Virus record (IMG/VR): IMGVR_UViG_3300028902_000368 | Direction: 5' to 3' (one strand) | Source of the DNA: a virus | DNA: 64,000 bases | Shown here: positions 30,141 through 58,470 of the stretch, piece after piece | How positions within the stretch are numbered: position 1 is the stretch's first letter | Layout: every line of letters begins with the position of its first letter | Translations under genes and position numbers: made by a program | The notes under the pieces: model-generated | What the model saw: the letters and a program-made list of their open reading frames with translations, nothing else | What the model was told of the DNA's origin: nothing | Databases searched by the model: none

Positions 30141-30147
30141 CTCGTTG

Positions 30148-30222
30148 CGCGCTCTGCAGGACTCGAACCTGCAACATCCCGACGCCATAAGCCGGGTGCT
30201 CTACCATTTGAGCTAAGAGCGC
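30148..30222 (-). ncRNA. tRNA-like RNA with 6-bp anticodon stem (loop TTATGGC, nominal ATG)
   Basis: Acceptor GCGCTCT/AGAGCGC; canonical D arm and TTCGAGT T-loop; extra base pair in the anticodon stem. Confidence 0.7.
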
Positions 30223-30225
30223 TCG

Positions 30226-30308
30226 TGGGGGAGGGTGGAATTGAACCGACCTGCCTCCACCGAGACCGCGAGGGTCACGGCGGTGCTCTGCCGATGAGCT
30301 ACTCCCCC
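30226..30308 (-). ncRNA. tRNA-like RNA with elongated anticodon arm and no 7-nt loop
   Basis: Acceptor GGGGGAG/CTCCCCC; CCGCC/GGTGG stem encloses 17 nt containing a GACC/GGTC hairpin. Confidence 0.7.
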
Positions 30309-37074: not shown

Positions 37075-37084
37075 CGGTGACTCG

Positions 37085-37166
37085 TGGTGCGAGAGGAGAG
37101 GATCGAACTCCCATGGGCATCGTGGCCCGGGCTCTCGCCCGCGTCTTCCGGTTCCGCCACTCTCGC
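37085..37166 (-). ncRNA. tRNA-Leu-like RNA with the anticodon loop replaced by a GAGA tetraloop
   Basis: Leu-type D arm, long variable arm, A73 and encoded CCA; anticodon arm is GGGC-GAGA-GCCC. Confidence 0.75.
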
Positions 37167-37167
37167 G

Positions 37168-37253
37168 TGGTGCGCAGGAGGGGAGTCGAACCCCTACGTC
37201 ACTGAGGACACCAGCACCTCAAGCTGGCGCGGCTGCCATTACGCCACCTGCGC
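37168..37253 (-). tRNA. tRNA-Leu(GAG)
   Basis: CCAGC-TTGAGGT-GCTGG; long variable arm; CCA. Confidence 0.9.
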
Positions 37254-37272
37254 GCGTTCCTTCGCCAGCCTG

Positions 37273-37358
37273 TGCTTGGGAGAGGAGTTGAACCTCCACG
37301 GGCGCGTATGTCCCGCCACGGTCTGAACGTGGTGTGTCTGCCGTTCCACCACCCAAGC
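37273..37358 (-). tRNA. tRNA-Leu(CAG)
   Basis: CCACG-TTCAGAC-CGTGG; long variable arm. Confidence 0.9.
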
Positions 37359-37382: not shown

Positions 37383-37514
37383 TGCCGATGCGGGGAGTCG
37401 AACCCCTGGTAGCTTGTGTGCTCGCGCTGTGTGGACCCGTGAAGGTCCGAGGTGCTCAAGCAGGTCTGGAACGAGCCTTATTCGTTTGGGGGTACCGTCC
37501 CCCTTATCATCGGC
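37383..37514 (-). ncRNA. tRNA-like RNA B (132 nt) with giant variable-arm insert; nominal anticodon AAG
   Basis: GCCGATG/CATCGGC; D stem GGGGG/CCCCC; AACGA-ATAAGGC-TCGTT; insert shared with RNA A; TTCGACT T-loop. Confidence 0.75.
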
Positions 37515-37522
37515 GTAATTTC

Positions 37523-37660
37523 CCCGTGTCCGAGATGCTCGTGCTGTTTTTTCTGGTTTGGTAGTGAGCCAAATTGCCAACCACTGGCGCAGCTCCATTT
37601 TGGTGGAGTTGTGAGGAGTCGAACCTCTGCTTGTGAGCACGTGCTGTGTGGACACGGGTA
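37523..37660 (-). ncRNA. Circularly permuted tRNA-like RNA C (3' half 37601-37660 precedes 5' half 37523-37596); nominal anticodon CAC
   Basis: ...TTCGACT CCTCA CAACTCC A CCA AAAT GGAGCTG...; TTTGG-CTCACTA-CCAAA; free ends pair as GGACACGGG/CCCGTGTCC. Confidence 0.7.
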
Positions 37661-37661
37661 G

Positions 37662-37786
37662 TCGGGGAGTTGGGAGTCGAACCCAAGAGCTTGTGTGCTC
37701 GCGCTGTGTGGACCCGTGAAGGTCCGAGGTGCTCGAGCAGAGTTCCAATGTTGCGGATTGGTGTCCTTCCGTGGACTTACTCCCCG
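37662..37786 (-). ncRNA. tRNA-like RNA A (125 nt) with 58-nt variable-arm insert; nominal anticodon GCA
   Basis: CGGGGAG/CTCCCCG; GTCC/GGAC; CCAAT-CCGCAAC-ATTGG; TTGGG-TTCGACT-CCCAA. Confidence 0.75.
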
Positions 37787-37802
37787 TGATGTGACTGGCG
37801 AA

Positions 37803-37815
37803 CTGTCAAAGAGCG
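37803..37815 (-). promoter_or_regulatory. boxA-like antitermination site
   Basis: CGCTCTTTGACAG versus the rrn boxA consensus TGCTCTTTAACA; lies between the promoter and RNA A. Confidence 0.55.
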
Positions 37816-37838
37816 GTGATTTGCATCACCAGGGCCAT

Positions 37839-37866
37839 ACTCTACCCATAATCGGGCACGTGTCAA
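37839..37866 (-). promoter_or_regulatory. Sigma70-like promoter of the tRNA-like cluster
   Basis: TTGACA-N16-TAGAGT. Confidence 0.6.
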
Positions 37867-38450
37867 GGCCCGATGGAAGAACGCACGAAACTCGGGGCGA
37901 TCTCGTAGTTCACGCGCTGCTCGTGGACCAGGAAGAGGCGGGCCGCCTCCGCGAGGTACGCCGACACGATGCCCACGAACGGCAGGAACGCGCCATCCTC
38001 GCACGTCGCCACGCCCGCGCCGGGCTCGTCGTCGATCTGGAAGCGCTCGTCCCAGACCACCCGCCCGTACGCGCCATCGGCCGCCAGGCCACCGTGGAGG
38101 CACGGGATGCCGCGCGCGCGCACGTAACCCTGCACGATGCGCCGGGATGCCCCGTTGTCCAGGCAGTCGATCACCAGCGCGGATCCACCCAGGAGTTGCT
38201 CCTCGTTGTCGGCCGTCAGGCGGTGCGGCACCGTCTCCACGCGGCGGTTGAACAGGAAGTGCATCTGCTGCGCGAGCGCCGACACCTTCGGCTTCCCGAT
38301 CCCCGGCATCCCGAGGAACTGGGACTGCGTGTTCTTCGACTCGACCCGGTCGAAGTCGATCACACGCAGGACCGTGTCCGTGCTTCGCAGGAACTGCGTC
38401 ACGTGCGACCCCAGCGCGCCCGCACCCACGATCGTGACCATCTTCTTCAT
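37863..38450 (-). CDS. ThiF/MoeB (E1-like) adenylyltransferase
   Basis: IVGAGALGS, VIDFDRVESKN..SQ, IGKPKV, VIDCLDN..SR and C-terminal Cys (VATCED). Confidence 0.9.
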   Translation of the reverse strand: MKKMVTIVGAGALGSHVTQFLRSTDTVLRVIDFDRVESKNTQSQFLGMPGIGKPKVSALAQQMHFLFNRRVETVPHRLTADNEEQLLGGSALVIDCLDNGASRRIVQGYVRARGIPCLHGGLAADGAYGRVVWDERFQIDDEPGAGVATCEDGAFLPFVGIVSAYLAEAARLFLVHEQRVNYEIAPSFVRSSIGP

Positions 38451-38611
38451 GATGAGGCCTCTTCCTTCGGCACGAACTCTTCGCAGTCGCACGCTTCCAT
38501 CCGCATGGAGCCGGGCGCGCAGCCAGTGACCACTTGGCAGCCCTCGACGTCGTCGTGCACCGACTCGAGGTGGCCGCACCGCCGACACACGCGCGCGCTC
38601 TCGTCAGGCAT
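38447..38611 (-). CDS. Small Cys/His-rich protein
   Basis: CRRCGH..H..GC...CDC; ATGA overlap with the E1 gene. Confidence 0.55.
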   Translation of the reverse strand: MPDESARVCRRCGHLESVHDDVEGCQVVTGCAPGSMRMEACDCEEFVPKEEASS

Positions 38612-38813
38612 CGTCCGCCTCCAACGTTTCCTTGGCCTCGAGCTCGCTGAGGCCGCGCTCCAACGCGAGCCGGAGCACCGCCGCCATCGACACCCTGATG
38701 CCGCACGCCCGCTTCGACAGCGTCGCGGCCAACGCCTTCGCACGAGCCGCCGTCTCTTCGGAGACGCTGACGGTGAGGGTGACCTGCACCGTGTCCTTCT
38801 TGGGCCTCCCCAT
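38604..38813 (-). CDS. Ribbon-helix-helix-like small regulator
   Basis: MGRPKKDTVQVTLTVSVSEE...SMAAVLRLALERGL. Confidence 0.6.
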   Translation of the reverse strand: MGRPKKDTVQVTLTVSVSEETAARAKALAATLSKRACGIRVSMAAVLRLALERGLSELEAKETLEADDA

Positions 38814-38820
38814 CGCCCCT

Positions 38821-39081
38821 CTACTTGGCCGCCAGGGTCGACAGGGTCTCGCTGAGCTTCTCGATGGCCGTGACCAGCTCGAGCTGCACCGCAAGCGCCT
38901 GTAGCTCGCGGGATCGCACCCGGTAGGCCGGACAGTGGGGGTTGGTGCAGTAGGCCTCCGTGCCCTCTTGGTACGTCGGCCAACCGCATGGCGGGTCGGG
39001 GAACGACGGGGAAAGGGCAACCGCGCAGGTGCCCTGACGGATGCGCAGTCGCTGCGACGACGTGCCGACGACGTGGTTCAT
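38821..39081 (-). CDS. Hypothetical protein
   Basis: ATGA overlap; Cys motif. Confidence 0.5.
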   Translation of the reverse strand: MNHVVGTSSQRLRIRQGTCAVALSPSFPDPPCGWPTYQEGTEAYCTNPHCPAYRVRSRELQALAVQLELVTAIEKLSETLSTLAAK

Positions 39082-39758
39082 CGCCGAACCGTTCCGGCGA
39101 GACCGAGCGCCGCCAGGTCCTCTTCGGTGAGCTTCGCCAGGGCGCGGGCGCGAGCCGCCCCCTCGTCTTCGACGAGCATCTGCACCTCCTCGCCGAGCAG
39201 GTAGAGCTTGCCGTCCCACTCGACCATCCGCTCGGTGGCCTGATGGACGTCGGCGTCGGCCCCGAACACCCCGCGGCCCTTGGCGCACTGGCTCGCGAGG
39301 GCCAGGCTCGAGGACCGGCCGATCACGACCCTATCACCACGCCCTTCGCATGTGTCCGTGTTGCTGACCACTTGGTAGTGCGTGAACTCGTAGACGGTCG
39401 CGTTGCGAGTGGACGGCTTGGCCGCCGCCTCCACCGCACCGACGAGGACGATGATGGTCTCGCCGATGCGGATCTCGTCTCCGACCTTGATCTTGGCCTT
39501 GCTGACGCACACCCCGTTCAACAGCACACGGCCGGAAACGCCGATGTCGATCAGCATGAGGTCCCCGGGGCTCGCGCCAACCTCGATGACCGCCTGCATG
39601 CGGGCTGCGGTCGGTTCGGTGAGCCTGATGTGTGCGCCCTCGTCACGCCCGATCTTGACCAGGTATTCCGTCACCAACACGGTTTCTGGGAGACCTTTGG
39701 CGTAGATCGCGGCGACCGAGGACACGGTGAAGTGCAGCGTCATCTTTCGCTTGGCCAT
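39078..39758 (-). CDS. Degenerate FHA-domain protein
   Basis: KIGRD...IRL..P..ARMQAVIE...LIDIG...LLNG...IKVGDEIRIGET. Confidence 0.65.
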   Translation of the reverse strand: MAKRKMTLHFTVSSVAAIYAKGLPETVLVTEYLVKIGRDEGAHIRLTEPTAARMQAVIEVGASPGDLMLIDIGVSGRVLLNGVCVSKAKIKVGDEIRIGETIIVLVGAVEAAAKPSTRNATVYEFTHYQVVSNTDTCEGRGDRVVIGRSSSLALASQCAKGRGVFGADADVHQATERMVEWDGKLYLLGEEVQMLVEDEGAARARALAKLTEEDLAALGLAGTVRR

Positions 39759-39765
39759 GGGTTCC

Positions 39766-40092
39766 TCAGCGCCGGTTGACGACAGCGCCAGAGACGCTGC
39801 CCGACACGTTGCCGCAGTTCACCGCGTTGCCGTGCACGCTGCCGCCCACGGCCTCGCAGTTGACGACGTTCGCGCGCACGTCGCCTTGGACGTCGCCGCA
39901 GCGGACGTCGCCGCCGTGGACCGTCAGGTTCGCCAGCGGCCCCTCCCACTGGATCGTGGTGGGGCCCCCGTCCTTGCTCGTCTGCGCGACCTCGCGGCCG
40001 TCCACGACGACACGGCCGTTGCTGACCGTGACGCTGTTGCTGTCGCCCTCGATCACGATGCGACGACCGTTGACGATGATGACGCTGCTCAT
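39766..40092 (-). CDS. Gly/Val/Asn-rich beta-solenoid-like phage protein
   Basis: Repeating V.CG.V.G.V motifs. Confidence 0.65.
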   Translation of the reverse strand: MSSVIIVNGRRIVIEGDSNSVTVSNGRVVVDGREVAQTSKDGGPTTIQWEGPLANLTVHGGDVRCGDVQGDVRANVVNCEAVGGSVHGNAVNCGNVSGSVSGAVVNRR

Positions 40093-40094
40093 GG

Positions 40095-40373
40095 TCAGGT
40101 CCCGAACGGCACCTTCGGCCGCACCATGAAGCGCGTGTAGGGGTACTGCTCGGACGGGTCGACCCGGTCGACCACGAAGTCGCGGCTGAAGTCGGCCCGC
40201 GGGTCCGCCGGGATGCCGGGGAAACCCCCCGTGCGCACCGCCTCGGTCACGATCGCCAGCACCTGCGCGTCCGTGCTGTCCAACGCCACCGCGTCGGGCA
40301 GGTCCACGTTGCGCGAGACGCCACCCGGGCTGTAGGTCAGGTTCACCAACGCCTGATTCGCTTCGATTGCCAT
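40095..40373 (-). CDS. Putative ubiquitin-like protein ending RPKVPFG-T
   Basis: About 92 aa with beta-grasp-like pattern and C-terminal Gly plus one residue; near the E1 and JAB genes. Confidence 0.55.
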   Translation of the reverse strand: MAIEANQALVNLTYSPGGVSRNVDLPDAVALDSTDAQVLAIVTEAVRTGGFPGIPADPRADFSRDFVVDRVDPSEQYPYTRFMVRPKVPFGT

Positions 40374-40431
40374 GAGGATTCTCCTGTTGTCGGATGGTCC
40401 TAGCATGGCCCGCACGGGTACGCCAGATGGG

Positions 40432-40785
40432 TCAGTCGCCCTCGTCGCGGAACAGCTCGCGTCCCTCCGAGTAGTGCATCTTGGTGTCGGCGGGGAAGAT
40501 CCGGAAGTAGTCGATCTCGTGGAAGGACACGTTCTTGGTCCCCCTCTGGGTGCGCTTGAACCAGTCGGCCAGCGCCCCCTCCAAGAGCGCGTGTGGGCTC
40601 TCGCAGTCGCACCACGTACCGTCCATGCCGTCCCACTGACGGACCACGAACCCCTGGTCGCTCTCGGGCATCACCTGGTGCAGCGTCAGGTAGCGCGCGT
40701 AGGCCTGCGCCACGATCGACTCGTCGCCGGCAGCCACGTCGGTCACAGCGTCCTCCAACGTGCGCTCTTCCGCGTCCGGAACCAC
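40432..40785 (-). CDS. Hypothetical phage protein (start uncertain)
   Basis: WDGMDG.W.D...IDYFRIFPADT.M motif. Confidence 0.6.
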   Translation of the reverse strand: MVPDAEERTLEDAVTDVAAGDESIVAQAYARYLTLHQVMPESDQGFVVRQWDGMDGTWCDCESPHALLEGALADWFKRTQRGTKNVSFHEIDYFRIFPADTKMHYSEGRELFRDEGD

Positions 40786-40968
40786 GACGACTGGTCGGGC
40801 TTGACCCGGTAGGGCACGTGCTCGGCCGCAGGGCGCTCGATCGCCTTGCGGAACCATCCGCACGGTTCCCAGGCCCCGTGGTCTTCACGAACGCCATCGG
40901 CGCTCGGACCTCGAAGCGCAGCGGGCGCTCCATGACCGTCAGGAGTCGCTTCAACCGACGCCAGTGCT

Positions 40969-41478
40969 TCATGGGAGCACCTTCAGTCCCGTGTAGACCT
41001 CGATCCCGCGGAGCCGTGTCTCGCTGATCGACATGCGCCGCTCCAGCTCCTCGATCCGGTCTTGCTCCGGGGTCTCGACCAAGAGGCCGAGGCTCGCGAA
41101 CATCGCCGCGTTGAAGTCCCGGAACGAGCACTCCTTACGCAGGAGCCTCTCCGGCCGGACCCACTTCGCCGTCAGCCCCGTCTCGGCGATGAGCTTCGGC
41201 GGAGCGGGGGTGCCGAGGGTGACCGAGTAGACGTACGCCATCCGCCCGGAGGTCGTGCCCGTCTCCCGCTGATAGACGAGTTGGAGCTGGTTCGGGTGGA
41301 TCTCCAGCCCCGTCTCCTCCTCGAGTTCGCGCGCCGCCCCGTAGACCGCGATCTCGTGCGGCTCGAGCTTCCCTCCGGGGAGGTTGAGATCCTGCTCGTT
41401 GTTGCGGCGGCTCACGGCCACGATGAAGCCCTGCCACCACACCAGCACGAGCCCCGCAGGCGGAAACTGCGTCGTCAC
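40969..41478 (-). CDS. NUDIX hydrolase
   Basis: Nudix box GGKLEPHEIAVYGAARELEEETGL. Confidence 0.9.
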   Translation of the reverse strand: MTTQFPPAGLVLVWWQGFIVAVSRRNNEQDLNLPGGKLEPHEIAVYGAARELEEETGLEIHPNQLQLVYQRETGTTSGRMAYVYSVTLGTPAPPKLIAETGLTAKWVRPERLLRKECSFRDFNAAMFASLGLLVETPEQDRIEELERRMSISETRLRGIEVYTGLKVLP

Positions 41479-42143
41479 GTGTCACCTCGACAGTCGAGCG
41501 CGTATTTCATGTACTTCACGATGCCCGCCGACTGCGTCGCGTACAAGTGCGGACGCACCGCAGGCACACGAATCGCCACCCGCAAGAGGTCGATGATGCC
41601 AACGCCACGCAAGCGGTCCAGCCCCTCGCAGAGCAGCCCGAGGCGCGCCTGCGGCCCCACCCTCGCCGGGATCGCGGTCTCGTAGCTGTCCACCAGGCGC
41701 GCGCACGCCATCGACAGCTGGTCCGGGGTCGAGAGCGCCAAGAGCAGGATCCGCCAAGGAAGGTCGTCCGGAGGCTCGGTGACCAGGTAGTCGACCACCT
41801 GCATCCCTTGGCGCTTCTGGCGGTGGTCCCCCTCCGTCAGGGCGAACATCTTGACCCGGCAGACCCGACTGTCGCTGATCGACATGATCCACCAGTCGAC
41901 CGGTCGCCCGAGCCCGTACACCGACTCCACGTTGCGGAAGGTCGTGAGGTCGGTCGACGACGGCATCGGCGGTCCATAGCCAGGGTGGGAGTGCGCCACG
42001 CCCGCGAGGTTTCCCGCCGCGTGGTGCTTGAGCAGTTCGTCCCAGAGCCGCTCCTCCGGCAGGTAGCCGACCGAACGGTCCTTGGGCGTGTGGTGGTAGA
42101 GCACCTCGCCTGACGTCCCCAGCACGATCGCAGCCTCGAGCAT
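41475..42143 (-). CDS. JAB/MPN-domain metalloprotease (deubiquitinase-like)
   Basis: N-terminal Glu and HSHP-x7-S-x2-D (AHSHPGYGPPMPSSTD). Confidence 0.85.
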   Translation of the reverse strand: MLEAAIVLGTSGEVLYHHTPKDRSVGYLPEERLWDELLKHHAAGNLAGVAHSHPGYGPPMPSSTDLTTFRNVESVYGLGRPVDWWIMSISDSRVCRVKMFALTEGDHRQKRQGMQVVDYLVTEPPDDLPWRILLLALSTPDQLSMACARLVDSYETAIPARVGPQARLGLLCEGLDRLRGVGIIDLLRVAIRVPAVRPHLYATQSAGIVKYMKYALDCRGDT

Positions 42144-42148
42144 CGTCC

Positions 42149-43147
42149 TCACCCAACCCTTCGGTACACCACCAACTTGTTCTCCCGGATGGCCTGGCGG
42201 ACCACCGTCGGGATCGATTCCAGGGTGAGCATCGTGTCGCCCTTCTCCCCCGCGTCGAACCCGTCGTCCCCGTGCGACGTCAGGCAGATGCCCGCGTCCA
42301 CGATCTGGAGGGTCCGGGCGATGCACACGCACTCGAGGCGATGCTGCTGCACCCGGTAGCGGACCACCATCTCCCCCCGACGCGCCGACGCACGGTGGTC
42401 CAGGTACTCGGCGCCCCCGACCCGCAACGCCGCCTGGGCGGCCGCCCGGAAGTCGGTCGCCGCGAGCTCTCGGCGGCTCTCGGCCGTGCCGATCGTCCGC
42501 ATCAGCTCGGCCCGCCGCTCCTCCAAGCGCCGACGCTCCTCGGCCTCCCGCTCCTGCCGCTCGATCTCGAGGCGCCGCCGCTCCGCCTCCTCCTTCTGGA
42601 AGACCTCCATCCGGAAGGCCATCTCGAGCGCCGGGACGACCCCCTTGACCGCCCGGAGCCCCGCCAGGCCTCCACCGTCCAGGAAGACCTGGTTGGCCTC
42701 TCCCTCGGGCCCCAGGGGCATCACGCGCCCCATGTAGACGAGGGGACCGTGCTCGTGGATGCGGCCCACTTGGATGTGCTCGAACCGGTCCAAGCCCGGC
42801 TCCACCAGGTGCACCCGCTCGGTCTCCGTCCCGATCCGCTCGAACTTCCACGGGTTGAAGCCCGTCCTCGACGACGGCACGAACCGATCGCCCGCCAGGT
42901 AGCCCTGCTGGACGTCGACCAGGTGGGGCTGCCACTGCTCCGGGCTCTGGAAGACGTCGTCCTCCGGCACCGACCGCAGGAACAGCGCTCGGCCGTTCGT
43001 CTTGGTCGCGAAGACGCACCAGCTGTGCTCCACGGGCAGAGGGCCCTCGATCTTCCACCCGACCACCCCACGGCGCAGCTGGCGGCCCCCCAGCCAGGGG
43101 AACCACTGCTCCGTCGGGGCCTGCTCGAGGAACCGCGCGTAGCTCAT
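42149..43147 (-). CDS. Hypothetical protein upstream of JAB; candidate E2-like component
   Basis: Coiled coil, then a C-terminal domain RLECVC...LQIVDAGICL...TLESIP; only a 5-nt gap to JAB. E2 role is inference. Confidence 0.45.
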   Translation of the reverse strand: MSYARFLEQAPTEQWFPWLGGRQLRRGVVGWKIEGPLPVEHSWCVFATKTNGRALFLRSVPEDDVFQSPEQWQPHLVDVQQGYLAGDRFVPSSRTGFNPWKFERIGTETERVHLVEPGLDRFEHIQVGRIHEHGPLVYMGRVMPLGPEGEANQVFLDGGGLAGLRAVKGVVPALEMAFRMEVFQKEEAERRRLEIERQEREAEERRRLEERRAELMRTIGTAESRRELAATDFRAAAQAALRVGGAEYLDHRASARRGEMVVRYRVQQHRLECVCIARTLQIVDAGICLTSHGDDGFDAGEKGDTMLTLESIPTVVRQAIRENKLVVYRRVG

Positions 43148-44958: not shown

Positions 44959-46551
44959 CTAGGTCCGTTCGCTGTAGTGGCCCGGGTCGCGGCCGAAGCA
45001 CGCCGCCCGCACCATCGCCGGCACCTTGCCCGTGTTGCGGACCTTCACGACGATGAACTGCCCGGGCTGCGCCGCGGTCCACTTCGTGCCCACCCCCACG
45101 GACTCGACGCCGTACGCCGTCCCCGGCACGACCCCGAGCCCGTCCGAGTCGAACATCGACTTGCCGCCCACCCGGACGTCCTCGACCACGATGTCGCTGA
45201 GCTGTTGGCAGTTCAGCAGGAAGCGCTCGTTCTGGAATGGCGCCTCGACCCGCACCCGCAACGACTCGACCCCACCGGGCGGCACCAGCGTCTCGGGGAA
45301 CTGCAGGGTCAGCGTGCGCTCGACCGCCCACGCGGACGGCGACTCCGGATCGATTCGCGAGAGCACCTTGCGCAGGCGCTTCGCCGCCTCCTTGACGTTC
45401 TCCGCCGTGATGTCGATGTCGAGGCCGCCGCCCTTGAGCACGATGTGGACGCGCTCCTTCTTGCGCGCCTTCTTCTGGTCACGCCGACGCGCCTCGTCGA
45501 CCAGCGCCTTCGTGAGCTCGAGGAGGTTGCCCTCCACACGCCCCACGGTCGCCGCCGTCGCCGTCGCCACCGCGTTCGAGAACACCCGCTCGTTGATGTC
45601 GCGGATGCGGCGACGCTGCTCGATCTCCTGGATCTTCTTCCACGCCTCCACCCGCTCTTCCTCCGTCCCCGAGAAGAGCTTCGCCCGGAGACCGTGCAAC
45701 TCCACCACGTCGGGGAGCGACTGCCCGAAGGTGTCCGACGGCGGGAAGGCCGCGGGCGGCGCGATGGGCGGCGGCGGGACGGCCGGGGTCGGCGGCACCG
45801 CCGGAGCCTCCGACGCTTGGGCGGGCTGCTCGGTCGCACGGGCGCCCTTGGCCCCCTTCTTCGTCGCGGTCTTCTTCGTGGTCTTCGCGGCCATCGTCTT
45901 CTCCTTCAGGCGTTCGTTCAACTGCTGATCCATGCGTTTGTTGTAGTCGTCCACCGACTCGACCGTGTGAGCCCCCTTCGGGTTTGGACATTGGAAGGGC
46001 GTGGCGAAGCTCGCGAAGGCCGCGCACCCGGTCCTGCGAATGACCTCTGCGCTGTCCTCGGCGGCCGCGCGGCTTGGACACATCATGTGGCGCCGCTGGC
46101 CATCCGGGCAGAGGATCATGTGAGGCACCGCCGGAGCCTCGCCTGGCGTCGCAGCACCCTTCTTCGTGGTCTTCACAGCCATCGTCGTCTTATCCTTCAT
46201 GTGTTCAACCAGTCGCTGATCCACGCGCTTGTTGTAGTCGTCCACCGACTCGACCTTGTGCGGACCCTTCGGATTGGGGCACATGCGCGGTTCGGTGCTA
46301 GAGAAGGCTGTGCACCCGACGCAGCTGCAGCGTAGAGCCTCCGCAACAGCCTCGGCCGCAGCGCGGCTGGGACATGTCGGGTGGCGACGCCGACCGTCCG
46401 GGCAGAGGATCATGTGAGGAACCTCGGCTGGCGATATCGTCACGCGCCAAGGCACCCCTTGGAAAGTGCCGGAGGTCGTCGTCGGGACGGGCGGGGGCGT
46501 GGGCCCTTGGCGTACAGCGCGTGCGTTCGTGACAGCGCACCTCTTGGCCAC
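44959..46551 (-). CDS. Multi-module protein: duplicated Cys/His module plus C-terminal copy of the 3518-4087 beta-domain (start uncertain)
   Basis: Two copies of VPHMILCPDG...CPNPKG.H.VESVDDYNKR; C-terminal TLTLQFPETLVP...ERF...VVEDVRVGGKSMF...VRNTG...RAACFG. Confidence 0.7.
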   Translation of the reverse strand: MAKRCAVTNARAVRQGPTPPPVPTTTSGTFQGVPWRVTISPAEVPHMILCPDGRRRHPTCPSRAAAEAVAEALRCSCVGCTAFSSTEPRMCPNPKGPHKVESVDDYNKRVDQRLVEHMKDKTTMAVKTTKKGAATPGEAPAVPHMILCPDGQRRHMMCPSRAAAEDSAEVIRRTGCAAFASFATPFQCPNPKGAHTVESVDDYNKRMDQQLNERLKEKTMAAKTTKKTATKKGAKGARATEQPAQASEAPAVPPTPAVPPPPIAPPAAFPPSDTFGQSLPDVVELHGLRAKLFSGTEEERVEAWKKIQEIEQRRRIRDINERVFSNAVATATAATVGRVEGNLLELTKALVDEARRRDQKKARKKERVHIVLKGGGLDIDITAENVKEAAKRLRKVLSRIDPESPSAWAVERTLTLQFPETLVPPGGVESLRVRVEAPFQNERFLLNCQQLSDIVVEDVRVGGKSMFDSDGLGVVPGTAYGVESVGVGTKWTAAQPGQFIVVKVRNTGKVPAMVRAACFGRDPGHYSERT

Positions 46552-58398: not shown

Positions 58399-58470
58399 TG
58401 GTCCAGGTCGGACTCGAACCGACTCCTCCTGGGTTTCAACCAAGCGCGCAACCCGTTGCGCCTCCGGACC
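58399..58470 (-). tRNA. tRNA-Phe(GAA)
   Basis: Loop TTGAAAC. Confidence 0.85.

What the first reader, a model, noticed from the sequence alone, without database searches (positions are those of the whole stretch)
37383..37786. New family of tRNA-like RNAs with a conserved, covarying ~55-60-nt variable-arm domain
Seen: RNA A (125 nt) and RNA B (132 nt) have complete acceptor, D, anticodon and T arms with unrelated sequences and different nominal anticodons (GCA, AAG; CAC in C). Yet they share the same insert: TGCT(C/T)G-AGCACCTC-GGACC-TTCAC-GGGTCC-ACACAGCG-CGAGCA-CACAAGC. The first stem covaries across copies: TGCTCG/CGAGCA in A, TGCTTG/CGAGCA in B (G-U), AGCACG/CGTGCT in C (two compensatory changes). 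The internal loop and CACAAGC stay nearly invariant, suggesting a protein-binding or catalytic module on a tRNA scaffold. The cluster has its own TTGACA promoter and boxA. Inference: these could be decoys or modulators of the ribosome, RelA or an anticodon nuclease, or substrates of an unrecognised splicing reaction.
Basis: partly seen in the sequence, partly recalled or inferred. Interest (0 to 1): 0.88.

Follow-up and report, generated by a model that had tools for sequence, protein, structure and literature searches.

The report
Phage tRNA look-alikes sharing one handle
Three small RNA genes in a large phage are shaped like tRNAs but carry the same extra helical arm; they belong to a family of well over a hundred such RNAs in giant phages, absent from the RNA catalogue I searched, and the arm is most likely a handle for a Ro60-like ring protein, as in Y RNAs.

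Summary
On the minus strand, RNA A (37662-37786) and RNA B (37383-37514) are complete cloverleaves with unrelated bodies and a near-identical arm in the variable-arm position. The middle copy C (37524-37657) is circularly permuted: the arm is its terminal helix and its acceptor stem is closed by an ACCA-containing loop.

Covariance models built only from other phages find all three (E 2e-17, 9e-14, 5e-13). I collected about 110 relatives from giant-phage contigs. Nearly every helix shows compensatory changes, and CUCG and ACA(A/C)GC are invariant. Rfam and ARAGORN do not recognise them.

The same arm occurs in four settings: inserted in a tRNA-like RNA, closing a permuted one, flanking a tRNA core, and alone. 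In most relatives a protein with Ro60-like architecture lies within a few kb. In one complete phage the RNA cluster ends about 240 nt before that gene. My best reading (about 50%) is Y-RNA-like tRNA mimics.

No such protein lies in this 64-kb window. Many relatives keep canonical anticodon loops and matching discriminators, so chargeable tRNAs are not excluded. RNA-library contigs show no splicing. This scan has noted the same stretch, and similar phage Y-like RNAs, on other DNA before.

The parts
37839..37866 (-). Sigma-70-type promoter TTGACA-16-TAGAGT for the RNA cluster; it overlaps the stop of the ThiF-like gene
   Evidence: 10 of 12 matches; 0.2 expected in shuffles. Similar cTTGACA promoters precede the clusters in L003, L005 and L170.
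37804..37830 (-). Leader hairpin (37815-37830) followed by boxA-like GCTCTTTGACA (37804-37814)
   Evidence: Unique in the window and conserved at the same place in L005, where the hairpin has one compensatory pair. That it matches the E. coli rrn boxA consensus at 10 of 11 positions is from my own knowledge.
37662..37786 (-). RNA A: unpermuted tRNA-like RNA (acceptor GGGGAGU/ACUCCCC, D arm, hairpin with loop CCGCAAC, arm, T arm); no CCA encoded
   Evidence: Fold (z -4.4). R2 hit 37662-37746, 54 bits, E 9e-14. ARAGORN calls it tRNA-Cys(GCA) only after the arm is deleted in silico.
37689..37739 (-). Arm (handle) of A: outer stem 37734-37739 / 37696-37701, internal loop with CUCG, inner hairpin, then CACAAGC at 37689-37695
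37524..37657 (-). RNA C: circularly permuted member. The arm forms the terminal helix (CCGUGUCC/GGACACGG plus CGUGCU/AGCACG) and the acceptor is closed by an ACCA-AAAU loop
   Evidence: Fold (z -4.4). R1 hit full length, 73.7 bits, E 2e-17, from a model built without this phage. Two compensatory pairs against L005.
37383..37514 (-). RNA B: unpermuted tRNA-like RNA (acceptor GCCGAUG/CAUCGGC, discriminator A, 7-nt loop AUAAGGC); no CCA encoded
   Evidence: R2 hit 37383-37469, 51.6 bits, E 5e-13. ARAGORN calls it tRNA-Leu(AAG) after arm deletion.
37412..37462 (-). Arm (handle) of B, identical to A's except for one G-U pair
37089..37358 (-). Downstream members of the same gene cluster: tRNA-Leu(CAG) 37272-37358, tRNA-Leu(GAG) 37168-37253, and an odd class-II-like tRNA-like RNA 37089-37166
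   Evidence: The L005 homologue of the last is called tRNA-Val(CAC) by ARAGORN. An RNA-library contig covers 37080-37251.
37863..38588 (-). ThiF-family (E1-like) gene directly upstream; the true protein is probably about 195 aa. It is a syntenic neighbour, not shown to be functionally linked
   Evidence: Pfam PF00899, E 1e-23. 997 homologues. In the RNA-first scan only 1 of 18 verified new loci has it nearby.

Best explanation
A, B and C are three members of a large family of phage-encoded, tRNA-derived small RNAs that carry one conserved helical module, a handle.

The handle consists of an outer stem, an internal loop with invariant CUCG on one strand and A-N-C-A on the other, a second stem of free sequence, and an invariant ACA(A/C)GC next to the T arm.

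I think they work like Y RNAs. The handle is bound by a ring-shaped Ro60-like protein (alpha-solenoid plus vWA domain) that most related phages encode beside these RNAs. The tRNA-shaped body presents a tRNA-like surface to a second factor that recognises tRNAs, such as a nuclease, a repair enzyme or a modification enzyme.

Shown:
- The structures and their covariation.
- The four settings of the handle.
- The gene neighbourhoods in relatives.

Inferred:
- Binding to the protein.
- Any downstream function.
- Where the partner of this particular phage is encoded (elsewhere in its genome, or in the host).
For: 1. The family is real and structured.
- Permuted class: 33 copies, 30 of 34 pairs with compensatory changes.
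- Unpermuted class: 74 copies, 17 of 18 arm and T-arm pairs with compensatory changes.
- Models built without this phage find C (E 2e-17), A (E 9e-14) and B (E 5e-13).

2. The handle is modular.
- It is inserted in the variable position.
- It closes permuted RNAs whose acceptors are capped by tetraloops such as UUCG.
- It flanks a tRNA core in L028:5857-5988, and occurs alone in L170:10237-10312.
- Known Y RNAs likewise come in two tRNA-like topologies, YrlA and Yrn1 (PMC4201824).

3. A candidate partner exists.
- A protein of about 628 aa lies within 4 kb in 46 of 73 related loci.
- The only full-length Foldseek matches to its model are Ro60/TROVE proteins (E 3e-8 to 3e-6).
- Its N-terminal domain alone ranks Rsr, Thermus phage phiLo Ro60 and Xenopus Ro60 as the top 3 of 48,161 chains (Z 9.4, 8.1, 7.1).
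- Its C-terminus is a vWA domain.
- Its language-model neighbours are TROVE clusters.

4. The RNA-first evidence agrees.
- In L145/G017, a 100% complete phage, four RNAs, a handle-only RNA and a terminator end about 240 nt before this gene, 150 kb from the phage's three ordinary tRNAs.
- In L109 a homologue only 27% identical ends 270 nt before an RNA.
- All 3 RNA-positive contigs that are at least 79% complete encode it.

5. The anticodon of the window's copies is not constrained.
- B's loop reads AAG here and AUG in a near-identical strain.
- C's reads CAC here and AGU in L005.
- The L005 counterpart of A has no such hairpin.

6. Arms are homogenised within each genome (identity 0.57 against 0.41; 0 of 5000 shuffles reach this). 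That fits matching to one partner.
Against: - No Ro60-like gene lies in the 64-kb window or in the nearest relative's locus, even by a sensitive profile search. Whether this phage has one at all is unknown.
- The protein matches no TROVE model by sequence.
- Its N-terminal domain alone is not significant in Foldseek. The VIA Z scores of 7-9 come with rmsd of 15-18 A, a range in which helical repeats can match by chance.
- Much of the co-occurrence is shared synteny within one phage lineage.
- One 32-kb contig with terminal repeats has the RNA but not the protein.
- The canonical Ro60-binding motif (GNCGAA / CGAA bulge) is absent.
- The RNAs keep more tRNA features than a mimic needs: 7-nt anticodon loops that are canonical and conserved within orthologous groups, Asn-G73 and Gly-U73 pairing, free acceptor ends and often an encoded CCA.
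- No binding, processing or phenotype data exist.
Confidence: 0.5

Rival explanations
1. They are working, chargeable tRNAs that carry a giant extra arm. The arm is an add-on that lets a phage factor mark, protect or route the phage's own tRNAs, while the RNA still decodes.
For: - With the arm deleted in silico, ARAGORN accepts A, B and 52-53 of 79 relatives as tRNAs, against 1 of 79 with the arm in place.
- Loops such as CUGUUAA, CUUCCAA and CUCAUAA are canonical and recur across divergent phages.
- A34 is under-represented, 7 of 51.
- The discriminator follows the identity rule for Asn (7/7 G), Gly (5/5 U) and Tyr (3/4 A). Overall it matches in 26 of 51, against 17.5 expected.
- Acceptor ends are free, and NCCA is often encoded.
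Against: - The identity rule fails for Val, Phe, Lys, Thr and Cys, and mostly for Gln and Met. A 51% match is far below a real tRNA set, and the p value is inflated by shared ancestry.
- In this phage lineage the anticodon flips between amino-acid meanings: AAG/AUG between strains, and CAC against AGU. A's hairpin is missing in L005.
- A duplicates the phage's ordinary tRNA-Cys(GCA).
- Many copies have 3-5 nt between the acceptor and the D stem, and 5-6 bp D stems.
- Permuted copies capped by UUCG cannot be charged as made.
- Handle-only RNAs exist.
Confidence: 0.2
2. They are tRNA-shaped decoys or sensors in the conflict with host tRNA-cutting defence nucleases. The varied anticodon-like loops are bait, and the arm serves stability or a partner other than Ro60.
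For: - Anticodon-like loops are kept as 7-nt loops but differ between copies and strains. Two of the 4 differences in 306 nt between strains fall in B's loop.
- Jumbo phages are rich in RNA-repair genes aimed at such nucleases (PMC7824862).
- The window's lineage keeps the RNAs with no Ro60-like gene in 64 kb.
Against: - No nuclease, ligase or kinase gene was identified next to the clusters here.
- The strict conservation of CUCG and ACA(A/C)GC points to a dedicated binder.
- This reading overlaps with the Y-RNA reading rather than excluding it.
- It is entirely untested.
Confidence: 0.15
3. They are tRNA precursors. The arm is an intron-like processing element that is cut out and the ends ligated, and the permuted gene C matures through a circular intermediate, as in algal permuted tRNA genes.
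For: - The same helix sits at an internal site (A, B), at the ends of a permuted gene (C) and around a tRNA core. Archaeal bulge-helix-bulge sites are distributed the same way.
- C's closing loop keeps NCCA here and in L005.
- ARAGORN accepts the RNAs once the arm is removed.
Against: - Contigs from three RNA libraries are colinear with the DNA across the arms, with no joined form. Contigs can miss rare forms.
- The helix has a symmetric internal loop, not a 3-4-3 bulge-helix-bulge.
- The conserved ACA(A/C)GC would remain in, or have to be trimmed from, the variable loop.
- Many permuted copies have tetraloop-capped acceptors without CCA.
- Handle-only RNAs have nothing to release.
- No splicing endonuclease or RtcB was seen nearby.
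Confidence: 0.08
4. The arm is a small mobile or repeat element that landed in tRNA genes, leaving pseudogenes without function.
For: A and B have unrelated bodies but arms identical in all but one base. Arms are more alike within genomes than between them.
Against: - Compensatory changes in every helix across about 110 copies in phages whose ThiF proteins are only 40-70% identical.
- Invariant unpaired motifs.
- A fixed insertion geometry.
- A dedicated promoter and leader.
- Presence in RNA libraries.
Confidence: 0.03

Closest known systems
YrlA-type bacterial and phage Y RNAs (Rfam RF02553; Chen et al. 2014, PMC4201824; Wang et al. 2018, bioRxiv 10.1101/312249)
   Same: A tRNA-derived body with canonical T and D arms. 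Copy C shares the T-then-D order and the loop-closed acceptor. A terminal helix with conserved unpaired bases acts as the presumed protein handle. Several copies are encoded beside a Ro60-type protein in relatives. M. smegmatis YrlA can even be opened by RNase P and receive CCA.
   Different: The RNA ends emerge at the variable-arm position, not the anticodon stem, so a complete anticodon-like arm is kept. The handle motif is CUCG plus ACA(A/C)GC, not GNCGAA. There is no match to RF02553. A and B are not permuted at all: they have free acceptor ends and the handle is a closed hairpin. The candidate protein matches no TROVE sequence model.
Deinococcus radiodurans Yrn1 and Thermus phage phiLo Yrl1/Yrl2 with Ro60 (PMC4201824; PMC12135203)
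   Same: A stem, internal loop and stem handle formed by the RNA's two ends. Yrn1 has the D-then-T order, like the third topology seen in L028. A phage-encoded Ro60 binds RNAs encoded next to its gene.
   Different: Those handles carry the CGAA bulge. The phiLo RNAs have no tRNA-like body. Binding has been shown there and not here.
Class II tRNAs (Leu, Ser, Tyr, Sec) with long variable arms
   Same: An extra helix emerges between the anticodon and T arms of a complete cloverleaf.
   Different: Class II arms are about 10-25 nt and differ between isoacceptors. Here the arm is 51-63 nt, has invariant motifs, is shared by RNAs with unrelated bodies, and also occurs outside tRNA contexts.
Circularly permuted and split tRNA genes (Cyanidioschyzon merolae, some archaea)
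   Same: Copy C has the 3' half upstream of the 5' half, joined through the acceptor stem, with the ends paired in a helix.
   Different: There is no bulge-helix-bulge motif, no sign of a joined or circular product, and the setting is bacterial phages, which lack the splicing endonuclease.

Membership tests
YrlA-type Y RNA (RF02553) | tRNA-like domain in the order T arm, loop-closed acceptor, D arm | tested here: met
   Met for copy C and 32 relatives. Not met for A and B, which have the normal tRNA order and free ends.
YrlA-type Y RNA (RF02553) | The RNA's 5' and 3' ends pair in place of the anticodon stem; there is no anticodon loop | tested here: not met
   The ends pair in an extra arm at the variable position. 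A 5-bp stem with a 7-nt loop is retained and covaries.
YrlA-type Y RNA (RF02553) | Rsr-binding motif GNCGAA(N0-1)G / CGAA bulge near the 5' end | tested here: not met
   The invariant unpaired bases are CUCG and ACA(A/C)GC. The defining motif is as stated in PMC4201824 and PMC12135203.
YrlA-type Y RNA (RF02553) | Scores against the Rfam covariance model | tested here: not met
   No RF02553 hit in the window at E up to 10, nor at gathering score in 16 related loci.
YrlA-type Y RNA (RF02553) | Encoded next to a Ro60/TROVE gene | tested here: inconclusive
   None in the window or in L005. In relatives a protein with Ro60-like architecture is adjacent, but it matches TROVE only by fold, and weakly.
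YrlA-type Y RNA (RF02553) | Physically bound by Ro60 | not testable with these tools
   Needs gel shift or immunoprecipitation.
Canonical decoding tRNA | Cloverleaf with 7-bp acceptor, D, anticodon and T arms, GG in the D loop and UUCGA in the T loop | tested here: met
   ARAGORN accepts A and B once the arm is removed in silico.
Canonical decoding tRNA | Recognised as encoded by tRNA finders; variable region of at most about 25 nt | tested here: not met
   ARAGORN and Rfam tRNA miss A, B and C. The variable region is about 58-63 nt.
Canonical decoding tRNA | Anticodon conserved among orthologues and consistent with identity elements | tested here: inconclusive
   Not conserved in this lineage. 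Conserved and consistent for the Asn, Gly and Tyr groups of relatives, but only 26 of 51 overall.
Canonical decoding tRNA | Aminoacylated and used by ribosomes | not testable with these tools
   Needs an acid-urea northern or polysome analysis.
Permuted or intron-bearing pre-tRNA | Bulge-helix-bulge or other known intron class at the junction | tested here: not met
   The junction has a symmetric internal loop between two helices. There is no Rfam intron hit.
Permuted or intron-bearing pre-tRNA | A joined (arm-less or re-circularised) RNA product exists | tested here: inconclusive
   No joint in contigs of three RNA libraries. Contigs drop rare forms, and no raw reads were available.
Two-piece (permuted) tmRNA | Model match, G3-U70 acceptor, and a tag reading frame | tested here: not met
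   Only sub-threshold partial hits on the T arm and acceptor hairpin (17 bits against a gathering score of 47). The acceptor has A3-U70, no plausible tag frame is present, and ARAGORN reports no tmRNA.

The most novel reading that the evidence does not exclude
The arm-bearing RNAs are genuine, chargeable phage tRNAs that have been fitted with a portable handle for a Ro60-like ring protein. This would be a tRNA tethered to an RNA-surveillance protein. It could keep phage tRNAs out of reach of host anticodon nucleases, or hand damaged ones to repair. The permuted, flanking and handle-only forms would be regulatory or competitor versions of the same system.
Probability: 0.15. Interest if true: 0.9.

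Novelty: new variant of a known kind. Interest (0 to 1): 0.72.

Why it matters
Y RNAs and their Ro60 partners are well studied in animals and in a few bacteria, but what the tRNA-like half does is still open. This family offers:
- more than a hundred natural variants;
- one handle in four architectures, including fully tRNA-shaped RNAs with free acceptor ends;
- compact phage loci in which RNAs and the candidate protein sit side by side.

That makes three questions directly testable: what the handle binds, whether a tRNA mimic can also be a tRNA, and how such RNAs serve a phage during infection. It also shows that standard tRNA and RNA-family annotation misses a sizeable class of RNA genes in giant phages.

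Tried and rejected
- **Strict DNA patterns for the arm in IMG/VR.** The strict pattern gave nothing and a looser one gave two chance hits in coding DNA. The arm's stems are too variable for exact patterns.
- **Single-sequence searches with the two flanking proteins in IMG/VR.** No relatives found. An alignment of ThiF homologues was needed.
- **DNA similarity to GenBank phages.** Only tRNA-Leu matches.
- **tmRNA reading.** Rejected; see the membership test.
- **ThiF as functional partner.** Rejected as unsupported. It was the bait for most loci, and in the RNA-first scan only 1 of 18 verified new loci has it nearby.
- **The 530-aa ORF at the syntenic position (44959-46551) as a divergent Ro60.** No similarity by BLASTP, PDB or Pfam.
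- **TROVE by sequence.** Pfam TROVE finds nothing in phage Rctr197k. Profiles of the vWA protein family see only the vWA domain.
- **Foldseek with the N-terminal domain alone.** Not significant.
- **My early inference that anticodon loops are generally unconstrained.** I revised it. That holds in the window's lineage but not across the family.
- **Whole genome.** None is held for the window, so I could not look for a partner gene outside the 64 kb.
Full report
**What is in the window.** The window is 67% GC and comes from a large phage. It encodes a DnaB helicase, a baseplate hub, HNH endonucleases and about 30 tRNA genes on the minus strand. It has no close relative among GenBank phages, and no whole genome is held for it.

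Downstream of a ThiF-family gene (37863-38588, minus strand) lie, in order:
- a sigma-70-type promoter, TTGACA-16-TAGAGT, at 37866->37839;
- a leader hairpin;
- a boxA-like GCTCTTTGACA at 37804-37814;
- three RNAs, followed by two tRNA-Leu genes and an odd class-II-like tRNA-like RNA.

RNA A (37662-37786) and RNA B (37383-37514) are complete cloverleaves with unrelated sequences. Between the anticodon-like arm and the T arm, both carry an arm that is identical in all but one base. That arm has an outer 6-bp stem, an internal loop, an inner hairpin, and then CACAAGC.

The copy between them, C (37524-37657), is circularly permuted. It starts with the 3' half of the arm and runs through the T arm and the acceptor 3' strand. 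An ACCA-AAAU loop then leads into the acceptor 5' strand, the D arm and a 7-nt-loop arm, and the RNA ends with the 5' half of the arm. The arm is therefore its terminal helix. The first sign of this was a weak Rfam hit to permuted tmRNA on the T arm and acceptor hairpin. The tmRNA reading itself fails: the acceptor has A3-U70, there is no tag frame, and ARAGORN reports no tmRNA.

**The family.** An alignment of homologues of the ThiF-like neighbour pulled out 70 loci from giant-phage contigs of 130-620 kb. I also fetched a 72%-identical relative (L005), a 64% relative (L007), and phage Rctr197k (L003).

- A motif scan found 152 sites in 59 loci, almost all on the ThiF strand and downstream of it, with up to eight per phage.
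- After delimiting, I had 79 clean unpermuted and 33 permuted elements.
- In the permuted alignment, 30 of 34 predicted pairs show compensatory double changes in the terminal stem, outer stem, T arm, closed acceptor, D arm and anticodon-like arm.
- In the unpermuted alignment, 17 of 18 pairs of the arm and T arm do.
- Invariant unpaired bases are CUCG before the inner stem, ACA.GC before the T arm, and the T-loop and D-loop signatures.
- Model R1 (permuted class, built without the window or L005) finds C full length at 73.7 bits, E 2e-17, and the Rctr197k element at 73.4 bits.
- Model R2 (arm plus T arm, from 71 copies of other phages) finds the arms of A (54 bits, E 9e-14) and B (51.6 bits, E 5e-13).
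- Rfam 15 recognises none of them. A few register only as tRNA cores without an acceptor stem.

**The arm is a portable module.** It occurs in four settings:
1. Inserted as a closed hairpin in the variable position, as in A and B.
2. As the terminal helix of permuted RNAs. The acceptor of these is closed either by NCCA-containing loops or by stable tetraloops such as UUCG.
3. Flanking a tRNA-like core from the acceptor side (L028:5857-5988, z -3.3).
4. Alone around a small hairpin (L170:10237-10312, z -5.7).

Tandem unpermuted units also read as permuted units in a shifted register. This suggests how the permuted gene arose. Inner stems are more alike within a genome than between genomes (0.57 against 0.41 identity; 0 of 5000 label shuffles reach this).

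**The candidate partner.** My notebook recorded the Y-RNA/Ro60 idea before I consulted earlier notes. Those notes describe similar phage RNAs beside Ro60-like proteins on other DNA, and I treated them as leads only.

In relatives, a conserved protein of about 628 aa with a C-terminal vWA domain lies within 4 kb upstream of ThiF in 46 of 73 loci, and 7 kb away in Rctr197k. The evidence on its fold:
- Its AlphaFold model has mean pLDDT 79.6.
- The only full-length Foldseek matches are Ro60/TROVE structures (E 3e-8 to 3e-6), but with low TM-scores.
- Sequence profiles see only the vWA domain.
- The N-terminal domain alone is not significant in Foldseek.
- In an exhaustive alignment against 48,161 chains, that domain's top three matches are D. 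radiodurans Rsr (Z 9.4), Thermus phage phiLo Ro60 (Z 8.1) and Xenopus Ro60 (Z 7.1). Unrelated solenoids follow at Z 6.5 or less.
- A protein language model places it next to TROVE clusters.

I rate a Ro60-like architecture as probable, not proven.

**Removing the ThiF bias.** I scanned the viral contigs with an RNA pattern.
- Of 31 loci on new contigs, 18 hold model-verified arms.
- Only one of them has ThiF nearby, so the ThiF linkage is lineage synteny.
- Two have the Ro60-like gene directly adjacent. One of those homologues is only 27% identical.
- Across whole contigs, 6 of 17 RNA-positive records encode the protein, including all three that are at least 79% complete. Most of the others are fragments. 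One 32-kb record with terminal repeats lacks it.
- In the complete 192-kb phage G017, a promoter, four arm-bearing RNAs, a handle-only RNA and a terminator end about 240 nt before the Ro60-like gene. The phage's three ordinary tRNAs lie 150 kb away. This layout resembles rsr with yrlA and yrlB.

The weak point for this finding is that neither the window nor L005 holds any homologue.

**tRNA or mimic?** If the arm is deleted in silico, ARAGORN accepts A as tRNA-Cys(GCA), B as tRNA-Leu(AAG), and 52-53 of 79 relatives, against 1 of 79 with the arm in place.

Features that look like real tRNAs:
- Many relatives have canonical loops that recur across phages.
- The discriminator base follows the identity rule for Asn (7/7), Gly (5/5) and Tyr (3/4).

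Features that do not:
- The rule fails for Val, Phe, Lys, Thr and Cys, and mostly for Gln and Met. Overall it holds in 26 of 51, against 17.5 +/- 3.1 from shuffling, and this is not corrected for shared ancestry.
- In the window's own lineage the anticodon is not stable. B's loop reads AAG here and AUG in a near-identical strain. C's reads CAC here and AGU in L005. The L005 counterpart of A lacks the hairpin altogether.

I conclude that the bodies derive from tRNAs and are still under tRNA-like constraints. Decoding is doubtful for these three, and charging is not excluded for the family.

**Expression and processing.** The DNA occurs in bioreactor metagenomes.
- Three metatranscriptome libraries hold short contigs on the cluster (37434-37740, 37434-37660, 37411-37587) and on the downstream tRNAs (37080-37251). 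X10 and X21 have none on the flanking coding DNA. X20 also has one (37776-37900) running over the promoter into the end of the ThiF-like gene.
- The contigs are colinear with the DNA, and no joint is reported.
- The strain's four differences fall in B's loop (two), C's discriminator, and a linker A-run.
- These are assembled contigs bounded by the arm repeat. They show presence in RNA libraries, but not RNA ends, rare spliced forms, or freedom from DNA carry-over.

**Comparison with what is known.** The closest known systems are the YrlA and Yrn1 Y RNAs and the phage phiLo Ro60 RNPs.
- The shared logic is a tRNA-derived body plus a handle formed by a helix with conserved unpaired bases, encoded beside a Ro60-type protein.
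- The differences are a different handle motif, ends at the variable-arm position with the anticodon arm retained, no match to RF02553, a partner that matches TROVE only by fold, and, newest of all, unpermuted members with free acceptor ends.

I therefore file it as working like a Y RNA, not as a member of YrlA. I found no paper describing such RNAs.

**Verdict.** The best explanation, at about 50%, is Y-RNA-like tRNA mimics that use the arm as a handle for a Ro60-like protein. Arm-bearing functional tRNAs (about 20%), nuclease decoys (about 15%) and processing substrates (about 8%) are the live rivals.

Noticed in passing
L027:8206-8558 and L049:5608-5700: Relatives of this phage carry a bacterial-type RNase P RNA (273 bits, cut by the locus end) and a small SRP (4.5S) RNA (57.7 bits) inside their tRNA regions.
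   Followed up: no
window 37863-43147 (minus strand): The gene block upstream of the RNAs holds ThiF/E1-like, NUDIX (40969-41478), a weak Prok-JAB match (41856-42143) and a conserved 319-aa protein (42155-43147). This may be a ubiquitin-like conjugation module. It is conserved in L003, L005 and L007.
   Followed up: partly
window 30147-30308 (minus strand): ARAGORN calls a tRNA-His with anticodon AUG and, beside it, a tRNA with a four-base anticodon (GACC). Rfam scores both as tRNAs.
   Followed up: no
window 37089-37166 (minus strand): A class-II-like tRNA-like RNA that ARAGORN misses here but calls tRNA-Val(CAC) in L005. Only a 15-bit tRNA-Sec hit in Rfam.
   Followed up: no
L170:10237-10312: A handle-only RNA of about 76 nt (terminal stem, AACA/CCUC internal loop, CACACGCAAA motif, small hairpin; z -5.7). 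It lies between the tRNA-like RNAs and the Ro60-like gene of a complete phage and is reminiscent of YrlB.
   Followed up: partly
L170:9666-10221: Tandem unpermuted units score as full-length permuted units in a shifted register (R1, 45-60 bits). A permuted gene could therefore arise simply from a truncated tandem pair.
   Followed up: partly
window 37475-37481 (minus strand): Two of the four differences between the window and the strain in the RNA libraries fall in the 7-nt loop of RNA B (AUAAGGC becomes ACAUGGC). The loop is either free to drift or is being diversified.
   Followed up: no
window 44959-46551 (minus strand): A 530-aa ORF with no family match and an internal repeat (about residues 52-115 and 150-202, Cys-rich) occupies the position where relatives have the Ro60-like gene.
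   Followed up: partly
window 58399-58470 (minus strand): Rfam finds a tRNA (57.5 bits) that ARAGORN does not list.
   Followed up: no
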